Source: Candidatus Omnitrophota bacterium
Lineage (GTDB): Bacteria; Omnitrophota; Gorgyraeia; B26-G9
Reading direction: 5' to 3'
Assembly (NCBI GenBank): GCA_043814605.1
Contig: JBDRJV010000013.1
Span: 34,471 to 98,470, forward strand
Length of the DNA: 64,000 bases
Within the stretch, counting starts at the first letter, position 1. The number at the start of each line of letters is the position of its first letter. Both the position numbers and the translations under genes were made by a program. The notes under the pieces are model-generated. The model searched no databases. It saw nothing but the letters and a program-made list of their open reading frames with translations, and was not told where the DNA came from. This document shows, in pieces, positions 10,849 to 17,393 of this stretch.

Positions 10849-11208
10849 TTATAAGTCCAAGTTTCCCCACCATCCATCATAGAACCTTTTCAGGTACTCG
10901 TAAAATTCTTCATCCATTGTATTTCTCTTTACATCTTTTTCTTTAAACGAATATTTATAACCAGCGCAATAGCTCATCAGAACATCATTTGCCTGAGCTA
11001 TTTTTTTAAACATTTCCTCGCATTCTTTTTTCTTCTCACCTCTACATTTGTCAGGATGATATTTAATGGCAAGTGTTCGATACGCATCTTTTATTTTATT
11101 CAAAGTTGCATATTCATCTAAGTCCAATATTTTTCTCGATGCATCAATTTGCATAAAATTTGCCATTTTATTTCCTGATTTTATATTTGCATTGCAAAAT
11201 TGAATCAA
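10849..11208 (-). CDS. DnaJ (J-domain) protein
   Basis: YRTLAIKYHPDK (HPD motif). Confidence 0.8.
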   Translation of the reverse strand: MIQFCNANIKSGNKMANFMQIDASRKILDLDEYATLNKIKDAYRTLAIKYHPDKCRGEKKKECEEMFKKIAQANDVLMSYCAGYKYSFKEKDVKRNTMDEEFYEYLKRFYDGWWGNLDL

Positions 11209-11213
11209 TTATT

Positions 11214-12116
11214 TTAATTGTGTTTTCTACTTTTACTATGGTGATATAATAAAACAATATCTCCAATGTTTGAATTAACCTTTTTTGCAATCACCGCACA
11301 TTTAGCTATAAACATAAAAAATACCGGCCTTTTACTGTTTGACAATGCTTCAAAATTCCCCTGCCCCTTACTAATTATCATATCAGCATTATTATAAATT
11401 TTTAAAAACTTTTTTGAACACAATCTAAGGACAGTTCCCGGAGCATCACTGCCGCTGGAAATAACCTCAGCAGTTTTATCAATCCCGCAAACAAGTGCAT
11501 CTTTTATTAAAGCATCATTAATCACTGGTTTTTCTTTTACCGCATATATAATTTCTTTAGTCTCATCCCCTCTCTTTATTTCTTCAATCAAAACACGGTC
11601 AAATACTGTTTCTCCTGCATTATCCGCTAAATAGAGAATAGTTTTTGCACGCTGTAACTGATAAGCAAATTTTCTAAAGCCAAAAATATTCTTGTTCTCT
11701 TTTTTAATAATTTGCTCTTCCTCATAAAGCAATTTATCCAGCTCTTTATCTACTTCTAAATGATTTTTTGCGCCATAGTCTATAATATTACCGATTATAG
11801 CTATCTCAACAGCAGTTAATAGTTTGATTTTCGAACATGCCACCTTTTTTTTTAATTTATCATAAATACGCAGCCCCACATCATTGCTCTTTTGTTTTAT
11901 CTGCGCGTACAAATCTGGGGTTCTAGTATTTTTTTTTAAAATTTTATTAACCATGCGGGCTACTTCCGGAGGAGAAACAGATAAAGACAATTTGGGTAAA
12001 GTCCCGGCTAGGGCATCAATAACTTTTTTCTGTTTTTTTTCGTTAAGGCCTGCCATCCGAGCCATTTCAATCGCTTGTCTAAAAAAACAAGGAATACAAT
12101 CTAAATATATTTTCAT
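11214..12116 (-). CDS. DUF89 (ARMT1-like damage-control phosphatase/methyltransferase family)
   Basis: Size and ISKGQGNFEAL motif typical of DUF89. Confidence 0.55.
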   Translation of the reverse strand: MKIYLDCIPCFFRQAIEMARMAGLNEKKQKKVIDALAGTLPKLSLSVSPPEVARMVNKILKKNTRTPDLYAQIKQKSNDVGLRIYDKLKKKVACSKIKLLTAVEIAIIGNIIDYGAKNHLEVDKELDKLLYEEEQIIKKENKNIFGFRKFAYQLQRAKTILYLADNAGETVFDRVLIEEIKRGDETKEIIYAVKEKPVINDALIKDALVCGIDKTAEVISSGSDAPGTVLRLCSKKFLKIYNNADMIISKGQGNFEALSNSKRPVFFMFIAKCAVIAKKVNSNIGDIVLLYHHSKSRKHN

Positions 12117-12159
12117 TTTTATTTCTCATTATAAAAATTAACATCACTATATGAAAATC

Positions 12160-12768
12160 CTATTCTTTAAAAATTGAAAATAGCCTGCGAGGAATTCCTA
12201 TGGCCAAGCTATCCCTTCTAATATTCGCATACTTACGGGAATCATTACAGCCAAAAGAAATATTAATATCATTCTCTAAATAAGTATTGACAGCAATGCC
12301 TCCGCAAATCGACATCATTGAGGACAAAGAAAAATTTAATCTTTTTCCTGTAAGAATATTATATTTTTTTATCAATTCCATAACATCCTCAGGCGGCAAA
12401 TAAGATATGATCATGTCTGGGAAATCATCTGTGTTTAATCCAATACACTCCACGGATTTTTTTAATGCAGAAATTTGCCGAAACATATCTATAAAAACAA
12501 AATTTTTTGTTTTATGTTTGTTATTACATTTTTTTAAAATATTGTTTTTTAAAGTATTTCCCCATCCAAATACATGTTTTGCACCCAGGCAAGATATACT
12601 TTTTCGATTTAACAACACCGGCTCAAACAATGCTTTATGCGTAGCCTCGCAAAATTTAATATTTTTCAATGGTTTAATTCCATTAAGCTTAGGATTTTTC
12701 TTATAGAATTTAACTTTAATCCAATGATTTCTAAGTCTATCTAAAATATTTTGATTAATTTTTACCAT
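12160..12768 (-). CDS. DUF169-like protein
   Basis: ~200 aa Cys-containing protein; DUF169 is a classical neighbour of MinD/Mrp-ferredoxin ATPases; assignment from memory of family. Confidence 0.35.
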   Translation of the reverse strand: MVKINQNILDRLRNHWIKVKFYKKNPKLNGIKPLKNIKFCEATHKALFEPVLLNRKSISCLGAKHVFGWGNTLKNNILKKCNNKHKTKNFVFIDMFRQISALKKSVECIGLNTDDFPDMIISYLPPEDVMELIKKYNILTGKRLNFSLSSMMSICGGIAVNTYLENDINISFGCNDSRKYANIRRDSLAIGIPRRLFSIFKE

Positions 12769-12783
12769 TATGCTATCCTTCCC

Positions 12784-13665
12784 TTAAGTGTTTATTTCTT
12801 GTTTTAACCTTTCCCAAATATCAATAATTGCTTTTTTTACCGGAGAATTATCATATTCAATGATTGTTTTTCCTTCTACCATTGCCTTAACTACTGATTT
12901 ATCAAAACAAATTTTTCCACTTAGTTTAATGTTATTTTCAAAACAAAATTTTTCAATTTTTTCAGACATATTAATATTTAGATCATATTTATTTATTATC
13001 AACCTTACTGGAACATTAAAGTGCTGTGTAACTTCAATCACACGCATTGCATCATGCAAACCAGAAAGAGTTGGTTCAGTTACTACTAAAGCAAGATCTA
13101 TACCGGATAAAGAAGCAATAACCGGACATCCAATACCTGGAGCTCCATCAATAATAACCCAATTATAATTATTTTCTTCTGCCAATTGCTTTGCTCTATT
13201 CCGTACTAAAGATACAAGCTTTCCTGAATTTTCCTCAGCAATACCCAGCTTCGCATGTACCATGGGACCAAAACGAGTATCCGAAATAAACCAATGCCCG
13301 GAAAGGTTTTCTTGCATAATAATCGCTTTTTTAGGACAGATAAAACTGCAAAACCCGCATCCTTCACAATCAATAGGATCAATCATAAAACTCTTTTCTA
13401 TAGATGCATTATTTTTTACAGCAAAAAAACGACAAACATTAAAACAATTTCCACAATTATTGCATAGGCTTGGGTTAATTCGCGCTGTTTTGCCGCTTCT
13501 AAATTCATACTTTTCTTTTATTTGTGGATGAAGTAAAAGATGCAGATCCGCAGCATCTACATCGCAATCTGCAAAACAAGCGTTTTTAGCTAAAGCTGCT
13601 AATGCTCCGGTAAGAATAGTTTTACCTGTTCCGCCTTTGCCACTAATAATAACTATTTGTTTCAT
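12784..13665 (-). CDS. MinD/Mrp/ParA-type P-loop ATPase with two 4Fe-4S ferredoxin motifs
   Basis: GKGGTGKT deviant Walker A; CNNCGNCFNVC and CEGCGFCSFICP ferredoxin motifs. Confidence 0.8.
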   Translation of the reverse strand: MKQIVIISGKGGTGKTILTGALAALAKNACFADCDVDAADLHLLLHPQIKEKYEFRSGKTARINPSLCNNCGNCFNVCRFFAVKNNASIEKSFMIDPIDCEGCGFCSFICPKKAIIMQENLSGHWFISDTRFGPMVHAKLGIAEENSGKLVSLVRNRAKQLAEENNYNWVIIDGAPGIGCPVIASLSGIDLALVVTEPTLSGLHDAMRVIEVTQHFNVPVRLIINKYDLNINMSEKIEKFCFENNIKLSGKICFDKSVVKAMVEGKTIIEYDNSPVKKAIIDIWERLKQEINT

Positions 13666-14514
13666 TTACTTAGTTCTCAAAATTTTTTGAAACATTGTTA
13701 AAAAACTATTTTTATATTCTGGAAATTTTTCTACTATGGAAATGCCCTGAGAATAGCTTTGAGCAATTTCTTTTTTAAAAGGAATCTGCATCAATACTGG
13801 AATTTTTTCTTTTTCGCAGTATGTTTCTGTTGCCTTATCCCCTAGGTCAGAACGATTGATTAAAACCCCAAATGGTATTTTTAATTTTCTTACAACTTCA
13901 ACTGCTAAAATTAAATCGTTTAAGCCAAAAGGAGTAGGTTCGGTTACCAGTAAACAAAAATCACTCCTTCTTAAAGAAGAAACTACCGGGCATGATGTTC
14001 CCGGGGGGACATCAATAATCACTGTTTTCTCTGGATTAATATATTTTTTAACTTGACGGATTAAAGGCGGAGCCATTGCTTCGCCTACATTAAGTTTTCC
14101 GTGGATAAATTCTATGCCCCGACAAACACCTTTTTCTACAATACCAATTTCCTTATTGACTTCGGTGATTGCTTTTTGAGGGCAAAAAAAACTGCAGGCT
14201 CCGCAACCATGACAGAGATTTGTAAAAACCAGAATACTTCCTTTTCTGTTTTCCTTAGCTGGTAACACAGCGAATGCATTATACGCACATACTTGGCGGC
14301 ACCTGCCGCAGTAAATACATTTTTTTTCATCAATTAGCGGCACTGGAATATATGCTTTTTCCTGCTCTTTTATTTCCGGATTTAAAAAGATATGTGCGTT
14401 AGGCTCTTCTACATCACAATCAAGAAATTGCACATTTTGTATCGACAAAGCTAAATTCACTGCAACTGTAGTTTTTCCGGTTCCGCCTTTGCCACTGGCA
14501 ACAGAAATAATCAT
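13666..14514 (-). CDS. MinD/Mrp/ParA-type ATPase with 4Fe-4S ferredoxin motifs (paralog)
   Basis: GKGGTGKT; CIYCGRCRQVC, CHGCGACSFFCP. Confidence 0.8.
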   Translation of the reverse strand: MIISVASGKGGTGKTTVAVNLALSIQNVQFLDCDVEEPNAHIFLNPEIKEQEKAYIPVPLIDEKKCIYCGRCRQVCAYNAFAVLPAKENRKGSILVFTNLCHGCGACSFFCPQKAITEVNKEIGIVEKGVCRGIEFIHGKLNVGEAMAPPLIRQVKKYINPEKTVIIDVPPGTSCPVVSSLRRSDFCLLVTEPTPFGLNDLILAVEVVRKLKIPFGVLINRSDLGDKATETYCEKEKIPVLMQIPFKKEIAQSYSQGISIVEKFPEYKNSFLTMFQKILRTK

Positions 14515-14525
14515 TTAAATTCCTT

Positions 14526-15131
14526 TTAATGTTTATCCGAAATTATTAAATCCTGATTTTCACCTTTAATTTCTCTTACCCAAAAACCCCTGCGCATTAA
14601 ATAATCCCTTAAATCTTTTAATGTAACAAAACTCTTATTATGATTGCGTCCTTCGGCTTTATGTATCTGGTCTAAAATACTAAATCCATTTTTATTAAAG
14701 TCACTTAAAATAATTTTCCCCCCAGGCAAAACTAAACGTATCATTTCCGCAATTGCTTTGTAAGGATTACTTAAATGGTGAATTGTATTGACCGAAAAAA
14801 TCACATCAAAACTTGAATCATTAAAACCTAAGTTTTCTGCATTAGCAATTTTAAAATTTACTTTTTCTTTAACTTTGAAATATTCTAGATTTAATTTGGC
14901 TAATGCCTGGTCCTCTTTAGATATATCTACACTTGTAAAACTATAGCCCTGTTTTGCTAATGCTAAAGTAAAGTGCCCTTTTCCTGTGCCTATTTCTAAA
15001 ATATTTCCCTTGATCGGTAATGAATTATTTAAAATAAATTCTTTTTCTTTATTTCGGTCTATACCGAATTTTTTAAAAACCTCAATTCTTTCTAAAAATA
15101 TTTGATGATTTTCCAAGACTTTTTTTCGCAT
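14526..15131 (-). CDS. Class I SAM-dependent methyltransferase
   Basis: ILEIGTGKGHFTLALA motif I. Confidence 0.75.
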   Translation of the reverse strand: MRKKVLENHQIFLERIEVFKKFGIDRNKEKEFILNNSLPIKGNILEIGTGKGHFTLALAKQGYSFTSVDISKEDQALAKLNLEYFKVKEKVNFKIANAENLGFNDSSFDVIFSVNTIHHLSNPYKAIAEMIRLVLPGGKIILSDFNKNGFSILDQIHKAEGRNHNKSFVTLKDLRDYLMRRGFWVREIKGENQDLIISDKH

Positions 15132-15135
15132 ATTA

Positions 15136-15372
15136 TTAGCCTCTACTCATGGGGATATTACACTTAGGACAATTCATATGCGTACAGGGCAATCCCGATT
15201 GATGTCCAATTTTCATTCCGCAATTAGCACAAACACAAAATCCTCCCGGGCCTCTACCCTGAATTCCCTTCCTTACAAATCTTCCTTGGCCTGCGCCTAA
15301 ACCTCTTCCTGTTCCAGGGCCTTGTCCCTGAGGGCCTGTTCCATCTCCTCTTGGCATATTGCACCTCCTCAA
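15136..15372 (-). CDS. DUF5320-like small Gly-rich protein with C-terminal Cys/His zinc-ribbon (likely starts at internal Met, MPRGDGTGP)
   Basis: MPRGDGTGPQGQGPGTGRGLG N-terminus; CVCANCG...H...C.H.NCPKC tail. Confidence 0.55.
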   Translation of the reverse strand: MRRCNMPRGDGTGPQGQGPGTGRGLGAGQGRFVRKGIQGRGPGGFCVCANCGMKIGHQSGLPCTHMNCPKCNIPMSRG

Positions 15373-15377
15373 TTATA

Positions 15378-15743
15378 TTAACTCATGCCAAAATGAGACG
15401 TTACGTTAGGTTTATCAATTGTTTTAAACTTATTATTTTTATATTGTTCAATAATTTCTTTTATTTTTCCCGAAGCTCCAGTAATAACTCTTATCCCTCC
15501 AGCTTTTAAAGTGTTAAAAGCATTTGGGCCTACATTCCCGGTAATTACAATTTCTGCTAACTTTTCTGATATTAATTGTCCGGATTGGATTCCTGCCCCG
15601 CCCGAACTATCAATATTAGGATTTTTTATTGCTTCAAATTCCAGAGTATCAGGATTAACAATTATAAAATACTGGCAACGACCAAAATGAGGATCAACCT
15701 GTGATTCTAAATTATCTCCTTGAGACGTAATACATATTTTCAT
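15378..15743 (-). CDS. NifX/NifB-type dinitrogenase FeMo-cofactor domain protein
   Basis: MKICITSQGDNLESQVDPHFGRCQYFIIV typical of Nitro_FeMo-Co family. Confidence 0.8.
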   Translation of the reverse strand: MKICITSQGDNLESQVDPHFGRCQYFIIVNPDTLEFEAIKNPNIDSSGGAGIQSGQLISEKLAEIVITGNVGPNAFNTLKAGGIRVITGASGKIKEIIEQYKNNKFKTIDKPNVTSHFGMS

Positions 15744-15754
15744 TTATTTTCCTC

Positions 15755-16156
15755 CTATTCATGTTCACAATCATCTTCGTGGGGATGATCACAAGCTGTT
15801 TTTTCTACTCCATAACCTTTTCCTGCTCCGGGACTACAAAGGCTTTCTCCTCCTTCAAGCTTTCCATTAATAAAAGCCTCAATCACATTATCAACTTTAC
15901 CGCTAATTCCCATTATGGTTTGGATATTAACTTCGGAAAATAATTCTCTTGCTCTCATTCCCATCCCCCCGGCTACTATTGCCTGCACACCTTTCTCATG
16001 CAAAAAACGCGGTAAAAATCCCGGATGATGTCCCGGATTATTTAAAATTTCTGAGCTTATTATTTTATTCTGCTCTATCTCTACAATTGTAAAAGCTGGA
16101 CAGCGACCAAAATGAGCAGATACTAAATCTCCATCTGTAGAAATTGCAATTTTCAA
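15755..16156 (-). CDS. NifX/NifB-type FeMo-cofactor domain protein with C-terminal CDHPHEDDCEHE tail (TTG start)
   Basis: MKIAISTDGDLVSAHFGRCPAFTIV; His/Cys/acidic C-terminus. Confidence 0.8.
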   Translation of the reverse strand: MKIAISTDGDLVSAHFGRCPAFTIVEIEQNKIISSEILNNPGHHPGFLPRFLHEKGVQAIVAGGMGMRARELFSEVNIQTIMGISGKVDNVIEAFINGKLEGGESLCSPGAGKGYGVEKTACDHPHEDDCEHE

Positions 16157-16204
16157 AATTAACCTCCTTTAATGATCTCGCCTTGGCGGGAGAATTAAAC
16201 CCCG

Positions 16205-16237
16205 AATCGAACTTGTTCTGGTTCGGGGTTAATCCAA
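16205..16237 (-). promoter_or_regulatory. Intercistronic GC stem-loop (aaccccgaa...ttcggggtt)
   Basis: 9-bp perfect stem between DUF5320-like gene and NifX-like gene; no T-run, so probably processing/attenuation rather than terminator. Confidence 0.35.
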
Positions 16238-16246
16238 ATCTCTTCA

Positions 16247-16600
16247 CTATTTAGTTTCTTCCTCTTCTTTTACTGCATTAAGTTCTTTTATCCGCTGATT
16301 TATAGCTTGTATTTCATCTTGCATAAATTTTACCTGTTCTTTTAAAAATTCAGTTTCGGTTCTAGGTGTAATCCCAAAATCATTTACTCCATAAGCATAT
16401 GAAGCCATTCTCCGCCAGCCAAATCCCTGTCCTCTACCATATCCTCTACCAAACCCCCGTCCATAACCAAAACTACCACGTCCAGGCGCTGAATTCATAT
16501 AGCCTGATACAGGATAACCAGCACAATAACCTCTTCCGCCACCTGTAAATGGACCTTGCCCTCTTGGCCCAGTTCCGTCAAAACCTGGCATATCAATCAC
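16247..16600 (-). CDS. DUF5320-like protein (MPGFDGTGPRGQGPFTGGGRGYCAGY...) with C-terminal coiled coil
   Basis: N-terminal motif; Gly/Tyr/Arg-rich middle; EIQAINQRIKELNAVKEEEE. Confidence 0.55.
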   Translation of the reverse strand: MIDMPGFDGTGPRGQGPFTGGGRGYCAGYPVSGYMNSAPGRGSFGYGRGFGRGYGRGQGFGWRRMASYAYGVNDFGITPRTETEFLKEQVKFMQDEIQAINQRIKELNAVKEEEETK

Positions 16601-16624
16601 CTCCTAAATGAGTCCCGCCGTATT

Positions 16625-16662
16625 CTTGCAGAATGCAAGAGTCGGGACGAATTTAGTCTTGC
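16625..16662 (-). promoter_or_regulatory. 5'-UTR hairpin directly upstream of RBS of 16247..16600
   Basis: gtcccg-ccgta-ttcttgca-gaa-tgcaagag-t-cgggac imperfect long hairpin. Confidence 0.35.
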
Positions 16663-16714
16663 CAATGCACACTCCCTTGAATGGACTTGGCAGACAAATA
16701 TTTTAAATCTTTTT

Positions 16715-16741
16715 TATTAATGAAAACCATTTTCATTAATA
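16715..16741. promoter_or_regulatory. Fur-family-box-like perfect palindrome TATTAATGAAAA-cca-TTTTCATTAATA
   Basis: 12-bp inverted repeat, 3-bp spacer, AT-rich (operator-like, not terminator-like), between Fur-family gene and the downstream 14-gene operon. Confidence 0.5.
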
Positions 16742-16753
16742 GGTTAAAAAAAT

Positions 16754-17227
16754 TTAGCTTTTTTTTCTGCATTTATCACATATTCCATAAAATTGAATTA
16801 TGTGACTTGTGATTTCAAAGTTGTATTTATTAGACAATCCCTTCTCAGTTTTTTTCAGTAATTCTATTTCGTCATTTATAAAATCAGTATACTCAATTAT
16901 ACGATTACATTCTTTACATACCAGATGATGGTGATGATGACTTTTCTTTGATCCCTCAACAAGTTCATACCTTGATCTTCCGTCTCCAAAATCAAACTTA
17001 AAAACAAGACTCATGTTAACCAGTATTTCTAGTGTCCTATAAACAGTTGTCAGTCCAACCGCCGGGTAAATTGGATGAATTTTATTATAAATATCTTCTG
17101 CGCTGAGATGTTTATCTGCGATCATTAACGCATCTAAGATAGCCTCTCTGCCTGCTGTAATTCGATAACCGCAGCCTCTGAATCTCCCATGCCACCACAT
17201 TGGGCCTGTTCCATCTCGTCTTGGCAT
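16754..17227 (-). CDS. Fur-family metalloregulator with N-terminal MPRRDGTGP (DUF5320-like) extension
   Basis: ILDALMIADKHLSAEDIYNKI...VGLTTVYRTLEIL wHTH; HHHHH; CKECNRII...CDKCR. Confidence 0.8.
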   Translation of the reverse strand: MPRRDGTGPMWWHGRFRGCGYRITAGREAILDALMIADKHLSAEDIYNKIHPIYPAVGLTTVYRTLEILVNMSLVFKFDFGDGRSRYELVEGSKKSHHHHHLVCKECNRIIEYTDFINDEIELLKKTEKGLSNKYNFEITSHIIQFYGICDKCRKKS

Positions 17228-17393
17228 ATCAAAACTCCTTATTGAAAACTATTCCCATTTATAAATATACCTTATCTTAAAAACTTTGTCAAGTTTTTTT
17301 ACTTATTTTAGTGATATTAGAGGTTAAAAATTATGGATTGTTATAACTTTAAGATATTACTCTTCGCCATCTTAAGTGATATAAAGCGTAATA

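What the first reader, a model, noticed from the sequence alone, without database searches (positions are those of the whole stretch)
15136..17227. Three proteins share an MPR(G/R)DGTGP N-terminus, including a Fur-family regulator
15136..15372 (internal start), 16247..16600 and the Fur-family protein 16754..17227 all begin M-P-R/G-x-D-G-T-G-P. In the first two this is the DUF5320-type Gly-rich head. In the third it is grafted in front of a canonical Fur DNA-binding/metal-binding body (MPRRDGTGPMWWHGRFRGCGY|RITAGREAILDAL...). A Fur sensor sharing an N-terminal tag with the small proteins of the operon it presumably controls is unusual. It suggests a shared interaction partner, a degron, or metal/cofactor hand-off between regulator and operon products.
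Basis: seen in the sequence. Interest (0 to 1): 0.6.

Follow-up and report, generated by a model that had tools for sequence, protein, structure and literature searches.

The report
Fur repressor sharing its operon's tag
A metal-sensing Fur-type repressor in an uncultured anaerobe has swapped its first helix for a conserved 21-residue head, and the first nine residues of that head are the same N-terminal tag carried by two small Arg/Gly-rich proteins of the iron-sulfur-handling operon it appears to control, a recurring but undescribed arrangement.

Summary
Three minus-strand genes begin MP(R/G)xDGTGP, each behind a strong ribosome-binding site, and there are no others in the 64 kb. The Fur head is translated and conserved: about 114 of 120 database homologues keep exactly 10 residues before an almost invariant WWHG(R/K)F(R/K)GCGYR. 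Third codon positions vary freely. In 40 of 50 related genome loci from at least 12 phyla, this Fur sits directly upstream of DUF5320, two NifX-like genes, a small tag-plus-zinc-ribbon gene and two MinD-ferredoxin ATPase genes. Only 1 of 30 ordinary Fur/PerR loci does. The cluster resembles the Desulfovibrio ORP complex and Pyrococcus IssA. A Fur-box-like palindrome (AATGAAAAYNRTTTTCATT) lies over the fur promoter and again before DUF5320, and these are the only two sites in the window. Fur is therefore a dedicated, autoregulated local repressor. The shared element is only the first 9-10 residues, predicted disordered and less conserved in Fur than in DUF5320. I favour a shared docking or hand-off tag that ties repression to the operon's machinery. 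This is untested. Rivals are a Cys/His ligand sensor, an evolutionary relic, or a processing signal. I found no literature on it. It is a new variant of a known kind.

The parts
17264..17292 (-). Sigma-70-type promoter of fur (TTGACA-17-TATATT, 11 of 12 matches)
   Evidence: The same TTGACA-N17-TATAAT layout lies upstream of fur in most related loci.
17241..17259 (.). Operator 1: Fur-box-like palindrome, 2 mismatches to AATGRAAAYNRTTTYCATT, between the -10 hexamer and the RBS of fur. Autoregulation is inferred.
   Evidence: In 29 of 35 distinct loci a site with <=3 mismatches lies within 100 nt upstream of fur, typically ending 10-20 nt before the ATG, against 0.3% of background 100-nt windows.
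16754..17227 (-). Fur-family repressor, 157 aa, with a non-canonical N-terminal head
   Evidence: Pfam FUR 1.5e-30 over residues 20-147. 1904 homologues at E<=1e-10. AF2 mean pLDDT 78.6 with a normal Fur body. Best PDB relative is 9ire, with the alignment starting at residue 17.
17201..17227 (-). Codons 1-9 of Fur: the shared N-terminal tag MPRRDGTGP
   Evidence: AF2 pLDDT <50 for residues 1-7. Column identities are P2 0.74, G8 0.80, P9 0.71 and others 0.2-0.5.
17162..17197 (-). Codons 11-22 of Fur: WWHGRFRGCGYR, the most conserved stretch of the protein. It occupies the position of helix alpha-1.
   Evidence: Mean pairwise identity 0.90, against 0.73 for the DNA-binding domain. Third codon positions vary freely. 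Short helix at residues 13-17 in AF2. Ordinary Fur/PerR controls have an amphipathic helix here.
16719..16737 (.). Operator 2: perfect palindrome AATGAAAACCATTTTCATT in the fur-DUF5320 spacer
   Evidence: 0 mismatches; one of only two sites in the 64 kb. 22 of 35 loci have a site with <=3 mismatches in this spacer.
16592..16715 (-). Structured 5' leader between operator 2 and the DUF5320 start (two hairpins)
   Evidence: RNA fold -38 kcal/mol, z = -2.7. No Rfam family. Other loci with long spacers also carry GC-rich hairpins, but their sequences are not conserved.
16247..16591 (-). DUF5320 protein, 114 aa: tag MPGFDGTGP, Cys23, an Arg/Gly/aromatic-rich region, and a C-terminal coiled-coil-like segment
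   Evidence: Pfam PF17253 96.2 bits. Residues 10-66 contain 19 G, 8 R, 11 aromatic and no acidic residues. No PDB relative.
15755..16156 (-). NifX-like / Di-Nase domain protein 1 (PF02579)
   Evidence: Pfam 81.5 bits. NCBIfam MrpORP Di-Nase domain 104.5 bits over model positions 265-365.
15378..15743 (-). NifX-like / Di-Nase domain protein 2 (PF02579)
   Evidence: Pfam 88.2 bits.
15136..15357 (-). 73-aa protein: tag MPRGDGTGP, a Gly/Arg-rich linker, and a Cys-rich zinc-ribbon-like tail (CxCxxCG...PC....CPxC)
   Evidence: Pfam DUF5320 28.9 bits over residues 1-47 only. This was the commonest tag-bearing class in a metagenome sample, 45 of 133. No PDB relative.
14526..15131 (-). Class I SAM-dependent methyltransferase. 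It recurs in the Fur-linked clusters, where it is an accessory gene.
   Evidence: Pfam Methyltransf_11 83 bits. Present in about half of the Fur-linked loci and 3 of 58 metagenome contigs.
12784..14514 (-). Two MinD/ParA-type P-loop ATPases, each with an inserted 2x[4Fe-4S] ferredoxin domain (Orp3/Orp4-like)
   Evidence: Pfam ParA/CbiA plus Fer4. NCBIfam MinD and MrpORP partial hits. Deviant Walker A motifs SGKGGTGKT are visible in the translations.
10849..12768 (-). Downstream genes on the same strand: DUF169, DUF89/ARMT1-like and a J-domain protein. They recur in related clusters.
   Evidence: Pfam and NCBIfam DnaJ J-domain. They recur in L014, L023, L026, L028, L035, L036 and L055.

Best explanation
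This is the regulatory head of an ORP/IssA-type iron-sulfur (metal-sulfide) cluster-handling operon in an anaerobic Omnitrophota/PVC-group bacterium.

The first gene encodes a dedicated, autoregulated Fur-family repressor. It recognises a Fur-box-like 19-bp palindrome, present once over its own promoter and once in front of the DUF5320 gene. It probably uses a divalent metal as co-repressor, as other Fur proteins do.

In this Fur clade the N-terminal helix alpha-1 is replaced by a 21-residue head with two parts. The first is a flexible 9-10-residue tag, MP(R/G)xDGTGP. The second is a nearly invariant aromatic/basic segment, WWHG(R/K)F(R/K)GCGY.

The tag is the same strictly N-terminal motif carried by the small Arg/Gly-rich proteins of the operon, DUF5320 and the 73-aa zinc-ribbon protein. 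My favoured mechanism is inferred, not shown. The tag would be a short linear recognition motif for a common partner encoded in the operon, either the pair of MinD/ParA-type ferredoxin ATPases or the NifX-like proteins. By carrying its clients' tag, the repressor would be engaged by the same machinery, possibly receiving the same cargo at His13/Cys19. Transcription would then respond to the load of the machinery as well as to free metal.

What is shown: the genes, the conservation, the synteny and the operator sequences. What is inferred: DNA binding, the metal dependence, the partner and the feedback.
For: - The tag is present and exactly N-terminal in all three genes, each behind a strong RBS.
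- The head is conserved at the protein level with free synonymous change. Across 152 loci only about 50% of same-amino-acid tag codons are identical.
- There are exactly 10 residues before WW in 114 of 121 sequences, with P2, G8 and P9 conserved.
- The Fur tag matches a profile of operon-protein tags far above control N-termini.
- Fur is followed by DUF5320-NifX-NifX-(small Zn)-(MTase)-MinD/Fer4 x2 in 40 of 50 related loci from at least 12 phyla, against 1 of 30 ordinary Fur/PerR loci.
- Operators sit at both positions, and they are the only two sites in the window.
- The tag is predicted disordered, as docking motifs are.
- In the tag-bearing proteins the sequence is conserved, not merely the composition. 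133 sampled ORFs all start MPRxDGTGP by construction, but nearly all are preceded by an SD sequence, and 58 of 79 non-zinc-ribbon ones carry a Cys at exactly position 23. This argues for a specific binding site rather than diffuse electrostatics.
- Both ATPases have the deviant Walker A of ParA/MinD enzymes. Partners of such enzymes typically act through flexible N-terminal peptides. The precedent is ParG, a repressor whose mobile N-terminal tail contacts and stimulates the ParA-type ATPase ParF (PMC3130281).
- ORP-type clusters elsewhere also have a dedicated regulator whose regulon is just the orp operons (OrpR, PMC8359166).
Against: - No interaction was or could be tested here.
- The tag is much less conserved in Fur (mean pairwise identity 0.50) than the adjacent WWHG segment (0.90).
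- In many species-level representatives the Fur tag has drifted beyond recognition while DUF5320 in the same locus keeps the canonical tag.
- Sister Fur lineages linked to the same cluster have shorter R/G/W-rich N-termini without the tag.
- Other regulators found next to such clusters (sigma-54 activators, DUF134, DtxR-like) carry no tag, so a tagged regulator is not required for the system.
- No sigma-70-type promoter was detected in the fur-DUF5320 spacer, so how operator 2 acts is unclear.
Confidence: 0.4

Rival explanations
1. The head is a ligand sensor. The conserved His13/Cys19, together with Asp5 or, in a sister variant, Cys6, would bind a metal, an Fe-S cluster or an anionic metal-sulfide species. 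Two heads in the Fur dimer could bridge a cluster. Fur would then sense cluster status directly, as Irr senses haem through an N-terminal Cys/His motif or OrpR senses redox through an Fe-S cluster. The resemblance to DUF5320 would reflect a common ligand, not a common protein partner. This rival is partly compatible with the favoured model as a cofactor hand-off.
For: - WWHGRFRGCGYR is the most conserved stretch of the protein. Column identities are C19 0.90 and H13 0.83.
- Many Omnitrophota variants carry Cys at position 6, as in MPRGECRGQG.
- 58 of 79 non-zinc-ribbon tag proteins have a Cys at exactly position 23.
- The DUF5320 mid-region (19 G, 8 R, 11 aromatic, 0 acidic in 57 residues) has the chemistry that the IssA paper assigns to thioferrate binding (PMC5524996).
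- The ORP regulator OrpR senses through a [4Fe-4S] cluster (PMC8359166).
- The Irr analogy is from my own knowledge and was not checked here.
Against: - Cys19 is replaced by H, A, R, G or Y in several cluster-linked orthologues, and His13 by Q, R or Y.
- W11, W12, G14, F16 and G20 are more invariant than the candidate ligands, which suggests packing rather than ligation.
- One Cys plus one His per chain is a thin ligand set.
- The 73-aa protein has the tag but no Cys at the equivalent position.
Confidence: 0.25
2. The tag on Fur is an evolutionary relic or a structural filler. The clade's N-terminus was remodelled, perhaps by capturing the RBS and first codons of the neighbouring DUF5320 gene. 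The functional part is the WWHG segment, which replaces alpha-1 and may serve as a basic arm towards DNA. The tag is now drifting and has no function in common with the operon proteins.
For: - The tag has low conservation relative to the rest of the protein (0.50 against a body median of 0.87) and is degenerate in many species.
- The canonical tag is confined to one clade of >=67% body identity, and sister lineages lack it.
- Residues 1-7 are disordered in AF2.
- Basic residues R3, R4, R15 and R17 lie next to a DNA-binding domain.
Against: - The length is fixed at 10 residues in 114 of 121 sequences, where a neutral disordered tail would accumulate indels.
- P2, G8 and P9 are conserved at 0.71-0.80.
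- The family consensus across at least 12 phyla is still MPRRDGxGP.
- There is no excess of synonymous identity between tags of one genome, so recent gene conversion does not maintain it.
- The acidic D5 is an odd choice for a DNA arm.
Confidence: 0.22
3. The tag is an N-terminal processing, modification or stability signal. After Met removal the N-terminal Pro (P-R-G-D...) would be recognised by a modifying enzyme, such as the operon's SAM methyltransferase, or by a protease adaptor. The repressor and the small proteins would then be co-modified or co-degraded.
For: - The motif is strictly N-terminal and always starts Met-Pro.
- A class I methyltransferase sits in the operon and recurs in about half of the Fur-linked clusters.
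Against: - The methyltransferase is absent from most tag-protein clusters, being present in 3 of 58 metagenome contigs.
- No protease or adaptor gene recurs in the cluster.
- No known bacterial N-degron or N-methylation motif matches this sequence (my own knowledge).
Confidence: 0.1
4. The feature is an artefact. Either the Fur gene really starts downstream and the motif is translated 5' UTR, or the shared sequence is an RNA or DNA element rather than a peptide.
For: The first 27 nt of fur and of the 73-aa gene are 25/27 identical in this window.
Against: - There is a strong RBS at the annotated ATG and none before codon 10.
- About 1900 homologues carry the head, with the amino acids conserved and third positions free.
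- Across loci, tags share only about 50% of synonymous codons, the same within and between genomes.
- No Rfam family matches.
Confidence: 0.02

Closest known systems
Fur family metalloregulators (Fur, PerR, Zur, Irr)
   Same: It has the winged-helix DNA-binding domain, the dimerisation domain, two CxxC pairs, a His-rich regulatory motif, and an AT-rich palindromic operator close to the classical Fur box. The half-site is TGAAAAT, against TGATAAT as I recall the B. subtilis Fur box. It is autoregulated and sits at the head of a metal-related operon. The logic resembles Fur control of suf (my own knowledge).
   Different: Helix alpha-1 is replaced by MPxxDGTGPx-WWHGRFRGCGYR. It scores below the curated cut-off of every NCBIfam Fur/PerR/Zur/Irr equivalog, the best being Bacillus-type Fur at 126 bits against 220. 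No solved Fur structure covers residues 1-16. In this window it looks like a local regulator of a single operon.
[quoted passage not shown]
   Same: The gene content matches: MinD-like ATPases with two [4Fe-4S] motifs (Orp3/Orp4) and Di-Nase/NifX-like proteins (Orp8 and the Orp9 domain). It is restricted to anaerobes and has a dedicated regulator whose regulon is just these operons (PMC6345978, PMC8359166). Sigma-54 activators of the OrpR type flank some tag-protein clusters.
   Different: The regulator here is a Fur-family repressor, not a sigma-54 activator. There is no full-length MrpORP in the operon. The tag-bearing small proteins have not been described as ORP components in the papers I could read. 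Whether Orp7 or Orp5 is a DUF5320 protein was not checked.
IssA (Pyrococcus furiosus thioferrate storage protein)
   Same: It has a NifX-like IPR003731/PF02579 domain, plus a cationic, aromatic, glycine-rich disordered segment proposed to bind anionic iron-sulfide polymer (PMC5524996). The DUF5320 mid-region has the same composition.
   Different: Here the globular domain and the Arg/Gly/aromatic segment are on separate polypeptides. IssA tails conserve composition but not sequence, whereas the tag is a sequence motif. No tag is described for IssA.
ParG/ParF of plasmid TP228 (type Ib partition): a repressor with a flexible N-terminal tail acting on a ParA/MinD-type ATPase
   Same: A small dimeric DNA-binding autorepressor is encoded next to a deviant-Walker-A ATPase. 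Its disordered N-terminal tail contacts the ATPase, stimulates it and also modulates operator binding (PMC3130281). This is the closest known logic for a regulator that carries a peptide aimed at the operon's ATPase.
   Different: The fold differs (RHH against Fur) and there is no sequence similarity. This is not a DNA segregation system. Here the same tag is also on non-DNA-binding client proteins. No interaction has been shown.
FlgM / flagellar type III secretion checkpoint
   Same: A regulator shares the recognition signal of the machine's substrates, so gene expression reports the state of the machine (my own knowledge). This is the same logic as the favoured model.
   Different: It is an analogy only. 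The proteins are unrelated, and there is no secretion system here.

Membership tests
Fur family (PF01475) | Significant match to the family profile over the DNA-binding and dimerisation domains | tested here: met
   Pfam FUR 106.2 bits (cut-off 23.1), residues 20-147 against profile positions 3-121. PDB Fur chains match down to 3e-27.
Fur family (PF01475) | Structural zinc site (two CxxC pairs) and a His-rich regulatory motif | tested here: met
   C104, C107, C150, C153, H98-H101, H40 and H142 are invariant or >=90% conserved in alignments of 29 and 142 sequences. Metal binding itself was not tested.
Fur family (PF01475) | N-terminal helix alpha-1 preceding the winged helix | tested here: not met
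   It is replaced by MPRRDGTGPM-WWHGRFRGCGY. AF2 gives residues 1-7 disordered and only a short helix at 13-17. Control Fur/PerR proteins have MEERLNRVKQQLQQSSYKLTPQR-type helices.
Fur family (PF01475) | AT-rich palindromic operator overlapping the regulated promoters | tested here: met
   Sequence level only: AATGRAAAYNRTTTYCATT at 16719-16737 and 17241-17259, conserved in related loci. Binding was not tested.
Curated Fur / PerR / Zur / Irr functional subfamilies (NCBIfam equivalogs) | Score above the curated cut-off of an equivalog model | tested here: not met
   Best scores: Bacillus-type Fur 126.2 against 220; PerR 92.5 against 180; Zur 35.9 against 167; Irr 29-31 against 150-170.
DUF5320 (PF17253) | Match above the gathering score over the whole profile (head, Gly/Arg-rich region and C-terminal helix) | tested here: met
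   Protein 16591..16247 scores 96.2 bits over profile positions 1-99 of 99.
DUF5320 (PF17253) | The same criterion, applied to the 73-aa protein | tested here: inconclusive
   28.9 bits against a cut-off of 27, matching profile positions 1-51 only. The C-terminal half is a Cys-rich zinc-ribbon-like tail, not the DUF5320 helix.
DUF5320 (PF17253) | The same criterion, applied to the Fur protein | tested here: not met
   No DUF5320 hit at E<=0.01. My own 24-position head HMM aligns only to residues 1-10 of one Fur. Fur shares the tag but is not a member of the family.
ORP complex (D. vulgaris Orp3/4/5/8/9 plus OrpR) | MinD-like ATPases with two [4Fe-4S] ferredoxin motifs (Orp3/Orp4) | tested here: met
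   Both ATPases hit ParA/CbiA plus Fer4 families. The ORP description is from PMC6345978. No direct comparison with the DvH sequences was possible.
ORP complex (D. vulgaris Orp3/4/5/8/9 plus OrpR) | Di-Nase (PF02579) protein(s) of the Orp8 type | tested here: met
   Two PF02579 proteins. One matches the Di-Nase domain of the MrpORP model at 104.5 bits.
ORP complex (D. vulgaris Orp3/4/5/8/9 plus OrpR) | Sigma-54-dependent activator OrpR and a full-length MrpORP (Orp9) | tested here: not met
   The regulator here is Fur. The MrpORP model is matched only domain-wise and far below its cut-off of 450. OrpR-like activators occur in other tag-protein loci.
ORP complex (D. vulgaris Orp3/4/5/8/9 plus OrpR) | Physical complex and bound Mo-Cu or Fe-S clusters | not testable with these tools
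   Needs biochemistry.
IssA-type thioferrate storage protein | PF02579 domain with a cationic, aromatic, Gly-rich C-terminal tail on the same chain | tested here: not met
   The two NifX-like proteins end in short acidic/His/Cys or neutral tails. Tail-like composition is found in trans on DUF5320.
ParG/ParF-like repressor-ATPase pair (logic, not homology) | Deviant Walker A ParA/MinD ATPase encoded with a repressor that has a disordered N-terminal tail | tested here: met
   SGKGGTGKT motifs are present in both ATPases. Fur residues 1-7 have pLDDT <50.
ParG/ParF-like repressor-ATPase pair (logic, not homology) | The tail contacts and stimulates the ATPase | not testable with these tools
   Multimer prediction and ATPase assays were not available.

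The most novel reading that the evidence does not exclude
A Fur-family repressor reads the state of an iron-sulfur / metal-sulfide cluster machine by carrying the same N-terminal client tag as the machine's small Arg/Gly-rich substrates. The MinD-ferredoxin ATPases or NifX-like proteins would engage the repressor, or load a cluster onto its His13/Cys19 head. Transcription would then be set by machine load as well as by free metal. This would be a FlgM/ParG-style checkpoint in metallocofactor metabolism and a new sensing mode for the Fur family. It would also give the first functional handle on DUF5320 and on the ORP-type clusters of anaerobes.
Probability: 0.3. Interest if true: 0.8.

Novelty: new variant of a known kind. 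Interest (0 to 1): 0.55.

Why it matters
ORP-type clusters (MinD-ferredoxin ATPases plus NifX-like proteins) are widespread in anaerobes. They are important for anaerobic growth in Desulfovibrio, yet their biochemical role is still unclear. I found no paper that discusses DUF5320.

This analysis defines three things. The first is a taxonomically broad Fur clade dedicated to such clusters. The second is its operator. The third is a short N-terminal motif that links the repressor to two families of small disordered proteins. Together these give concrete experiments: operator binding and its metal dependence, tag-dependent interactions, and Cys/His ligation. Those experiments could show what the cluster handles and how it is controlled.

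For Fur biology, it would be a rare case of a family member whose N-terminus has been rebuilt into a possible second sensory input. If the tag turns out to be a relic, the result is still a useful annotation: a new Fur subfamily, its regulon and its binding site.

Tried and rejected
1. Mis-called start or translated 5' UTR. Rejected on the RBS positions, the conservation in about 1900 homologues and the free third codon positions.
2. RNA- or DNA-level element, or gene conversion between the three heads. The 25/27 nt identity between fur and the 73-aa gene looked suggestive. Across 152 loci, however, within-genome tag pairs share synonymous codons no more often (0.50) than GC3-matched between-genome pairs (0.48).
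3. Homology of the whole 21-residue Fur head to the DUF5320 head. I had noticed a shared RGxGY with a one-residue shift. It is not supported: the HMM alignment covers positions 1-10 only.
4. A riboswitch in the DUF5320 leader. Rfam finds nothing, only moderately stable hairpins.
5. Other globular protein families carrying the tag. A metagenome DNA-pattern scan yielded 133 tagged ORFs. All are small Arg/Gly-rich, coiled-coil or zinc-ribbon proteins, plus one Fur.
6. Tags on other regulators of such clusters (sigma-54 activator, DUF134, DtxR-like). None were found.
7. Solved structures for DUF5320 or the 73-aa protein. None exist.
8. Literature on DUF5320, the motif string, or COG1149/COG1433. 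Nothing relevant was found. The 2011 ORP paper (PMC3133258) is not held, so I could not check whether Orp7 or Orp5 is a DUF5320 protein.
9. A sigma-70 promoter or a terminator in the fur-DUF5320 spacer. The simple scan found neither.

Full report
**1. What is in the sequence**

All relevant genes lie on the minus strand.

- Fur runs 17227..16754 and begins MPRRDGTGPMWWHGRFRGCGYRITAGREAILDAL. AAGGAG lies 7 nt before the ATG.
- The DUF5320 gene really starts at ATG 16591 (MPGFDGTGPRGQGPFTGGGRGYCAG...), behind GGAGGTG.
- The third gene really starts at ATG 15357 (MPRGDGTGPQGQGPGTGRG...), behind GAGGAGGTG.

A six-frame scan of all 64 kb finds the N-terminal motif only at these three sites.

Pfam assigns the genes as follows:

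| Gene | Assignment |
|---|---|
| 17227..16754 | FUR, 106 bits, residues 20-147 |
| 16591..16247 | DUF5320, 96 bits |
| 16156..15755 and 15743..15378 | two PF02579 NifX-like proteins |
| 15357..15136 | marginal DUF5320 hit, residues 1-47 only, 28.9 bits |
| 15131..14526 | SAM methyltransferase |
| 14514..13666 and 13665..12784 | two ParA/MinD-type ATPases with inserted 4Fe-4S ferredoxin domains |
| 12768..11214 | DUF169, then DUF89 |

A J-domain protein follows.

**2. Is the Fur head real?**

A search of 5.8 billion proteins returned 1904 homologues at E<=1e-10. The best 120 are nearly all about 157 aa and cover the query end to end. Their N-termini keep the head.

In a 121-sequence alignment, 114 sequences have exactly 10 residues before a WW pair. 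The segment WWHGRFRGCGYR has a mean pairwise identity of 0.90, higher than the DNA-binding domain at 0.73. The tag (positions 2-9) scores 0.50, with P2, G8 and P9 at 0.71-0.80.

In DNA from related loci the conserved residues use all synonymous codons (CAT/CAC 11:10, all four Gly codons, TTT/TTC 10:12). Selection therefore acts on the peptide.

The only in-frame ATG between the annotated start and the DNA-binding domain is codon 10. It has no Shine-Dalgarno sequence, and that position is P/M/L/V in homologues.

**3. Is the tag really shared?**

I built a position matrix from 45 distinct DUF5320/small-protein heads in loci that were fetched through Fur, not through the motif. It scores 76% of 119 Fur N-termini above the maximum of 2014 control N-termini.

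The consensus for Fur is M-P-R/G-R/G-D/N-G-T/R/M-G-P. For the operon proteins it is M-P-G/R-G/F-D-G/R-T-G-P.

The similarity stops at residue 10. A 24-position head HMM aligns to Fur only over positions 1-10, and Pfam DUF5320 does not hit Fur.

The canonical tag is concentrated in one Fur clade with >=67% body identity. More distant cluster-linked relatives have shorter R/G/W-rich N-termini such as MPGRHHWHHRFRENVSRWT. Among species representatives the Fur tag is often degenerate (MPRGECRGQG, MPNRFKMRPP) while the adjacent DUF5320 keeps MPGFDGTGP.

There is no sign of gene conversion. Tags within one genome share synonymous codons no more often (0.50) than GC3-matched tags from different genomes (0.48).

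**4. Context**

Contigs encoding close homologues from Nitrospirae and WOR-3 show the same order. It runs Fur, DUF5320, NifX-like x2, a 74-79-aa tagged protein, MinD-ferredoxin x2, with Zn_ribbon_8 and methyltransferase as variable extras.

A scan of species-representative genomes gave 80 loci. Of the 50 with >=45% identity to the window Fur, 40 have DUF5320 and/or NifX-like genes directly downstream on the same strand. Three of the remaining ten are truncated contigs. Of the 30 more distant Fur/PerR loci, which are mostly Bacillota with a normal alpha-1 helix, only one has such a cluster.

The record titles span Omnitrophota, Planctomycetia, Atribacterota, WOR-3, Nitrospirota, Elusimicrobiota, Lentisphaerae, Calditrichota, Desulfobacterota, Clostridia, Aminicenantes, Actinomycetes, Verrucomicrobiota and Zixibacteria.

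**5. Operators**

Upstream of fur in nearly every related locus there is a TTGACA-N17-TATAAT promoter. It is followed by a palindrome (consensus TAATGRAAAYNRTTTYCATTA) that ends 10-20 nt before the ATG. A second copy lies in the fur-DUF5320 spacer.

In 35 distinct loci, 29 have a site with <=3 mismatches upstream of fur and 22 have one in the spacer. The background is 0.3% of 100-nt windows.

In the window the promoter is at 17292-17264. The only two matches in 64 kb are 16719-16737 (perfect) and 17241-17259 (2 mismatches).

The half-site TGAAAAT differs by one base from the TGATAAT half-site that I recall for Bacillus Fur boxes, and some loci carry the TGATAAT form. I infer a dedicated, autoregulated local repressor. 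Binding itself is not shown. No separate sigma-70 promoter or terminator was detected in the spacer, so operator 2 may overlap a weak promoter or act as a roadblock.

**6. What kind of Fur?**

- The body keeps the two CxxC pairs, the His run and other conserved His/Glu positions.
- NCBIfam places it nearest to Bacillus-type Fur (126 bits), then PerR (92 bits). It is below the cut-off of every curated equivalog.
- AF2 with 142 sequences gives a normal Fur fold (mean pLDDT 78.6). Residues 1-7 are below 50, and there is a short helix at 13-17.
- The best solved relative (9ire, 3e-27) aligns only from residue 17.

**7. What is the operon?**

The gene content matches the ORP complex of Desulfovibrio vulgaris. 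Orp3/Orp4 are MinD-like proteins with two [4Fe-4S] motifs. Orp8 is a Di-Nase 'orange protein', and MrpORP is an Fe-S carrier (PMC6345978). One NifX-like protein here matches the Di-Nase domain of the MrpORP model. In D. vulgaris the cluster has its own regulator, OrpR, whose regulon is just the orp operons and which senses redox through an Fe-S cluster (PMC8359166).

The DUF5320 mid-region has 19 Gly, 8 Arg, 11 aromatic and no acidic residues in 57. This is the chemistry that the IssA study assigns to binding of anionic thioferrate by the tail of a NifX-like protein (PMC5524996).

**8. How widespread is the tag?**

The 133 tagged ORFs recovered are nearly all preceded by a Shine-Dalgarno sequence. 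They break down as follows:

| Class | Count |
|---|---|
| Classical DUF5320 | 34 |
| Tag + zinc ribbon | 45 |
| Other small Arg/Gly-rich or coiled-coil proteins | 53 |
| Fur | 1 |

No other globular family appeared. 58 of 79 non-zinc-ribbon proteins have a Cys at exactly position 23.

Of 58 contigs >=4 kb, 32 carry NifX-like genes, 30 carry MinD-ferredoxin genes and 3 carry Fur. Other flanking regulators (sigma-54 activators, DUF134, a DtxR-like protein) carry no tag.

**9. Mechanism**

The following are shown at sequence level:
- the genes and a conserved peptide head;
- tight synteny across phyla;
- two conserved operators;
- a disordered tag shared with two families of small proteins.

The rest is inferred. 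The tag is strictly N-terminal, its sequence rather than its composition is conserved in the small proteins, it is disordered, and it co-occurs with ParA/MinD-type ATPases. For these reasons I favour a short linear recognition motif for a partner in the operon.

On the repressor it would couple transcription to the machinery. The closest precedents are ParG, whose mobile N-terminal tail contacts and stimulates the ParA-type ATPase ParF while ParG represses the operon (PMC3130281), and FlgM (my own knowledge). A cofactor hand-off onto His13/Cys19 is a plausible specific version.

The main counter-evidence is the weak and lineage-dependent conservation of the tag in Fur. That observation supports two rivals: a Cys/His ligand-sensing head, and a drifting relic attached to a functionally important WWHG segment.

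**10. Verdict**

I found no paper on DUF5320 beyond two incidental mentions, none on the motif, and none on this Fur clade. It is a new variant of a known kind: a Fur subfamily with a rebuilt N-terminus, dedicated to ORP/IssA-type clusters. Interest is moderate to good, 0.55. It would be higher if the tag proves to be a functional link between the repressor and the machinery.

Noticed in passing
window 16198-16230 (minus strand), between DUF5320 and the first NifX-like gene: A perfect 9-bp stem (AACCCCGAA ... TTCGGGGTT) with a 15-nt loop, with no T-run after it. The terminator scan did not call it. It could be an attenuator, a processing site or a stabilising hairpin inside the operon.
   Followed up: no
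window 16592-16715 (minus strand): The 5' leader of DUF5320, downstream of operator 2, folds into two hairpins (-38 kcal/mol, z = -2.7) and has no Rfam match. Other loci with long fur-DUF5320 spacers (L001, L023, L028, L037, L055) also contain GC-rich hairpins with different sequences.
   Followed up: partly
L009, L010, L012, L016, L020, L021 (Omnitrophota), Fur residues 1-10: A sister variant of the Fur head reads MPRGECRGQG-WWHGKFRGCGYR, with Cys at position 6 where the window has Gly. Together with His13 and Cys19 this could be a small metal or cluster site.
   Followed up: partly
L001 5316-5660, L004 6320-6763, L200 6889-7335: A CGGC-domain protein (PF08821) recurs a few genes upstream of the Fur or sigma-54 regulator of tag-protein clusters in Nitrospirae, WOR-3 and a deltaproteobacterium-like contig. 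It is not present next to the window's fur.
   Followed up: no
L100 1290-1931, L115 3397-3879, L200 4777-5214: In sigma-54-regulated (OrpR-like) clusters, a NifX-like protein ends in an 'MPGC...' motif followed by a basic Arg/Gly-rich tail. This is an IssA-like domain-plus-tail arrangement in cis, and it sits directly before a DUF5320 gene.
   Followed up: no
L009 1989-2135 (fur-DUF5320 spacer): An extra small tagged ORF (MPCFDGTGPRSGSKGARVGKGQGKGK...) lies between fur and DUF5320. Several metagenome contigs carry two or three tagged genes in tandem (L190, L196, L203), so the tag family expands locally.
   Followed up: no
L091 7830-8270; L203 406-873: Other regulators flank tag-protein clusters: a DtxR/MntR-like metal repressor in a high-GC contig, and a DUF134-like protein beginning MARPVKLR. 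This suggests repeated recruitment of metal-responsive or dedicated regulators to these clusters.
   Followed up: partly
window about 52565 (minus strand): The only other DGTGP in the window is internal to an unrelated ORF (...LDGTGPDDLPLKKLILRIKENNIKEVIIATS...). It looks like RecR from memory, which I did not check.
   Followed up: no
window 10849-12768 and 14526-15131: The methyltransferase, DUF169, DUF89/ARMT1-like and J-domain genes recur in the Fur-linked clusters of several phyla (L014, L023, L026, L028, L035, L036, L055). They are rare near tag proteins in the general metagenome sample, so they look like an accessory module specific to the Fur-regulated version.
   Followed up: partly
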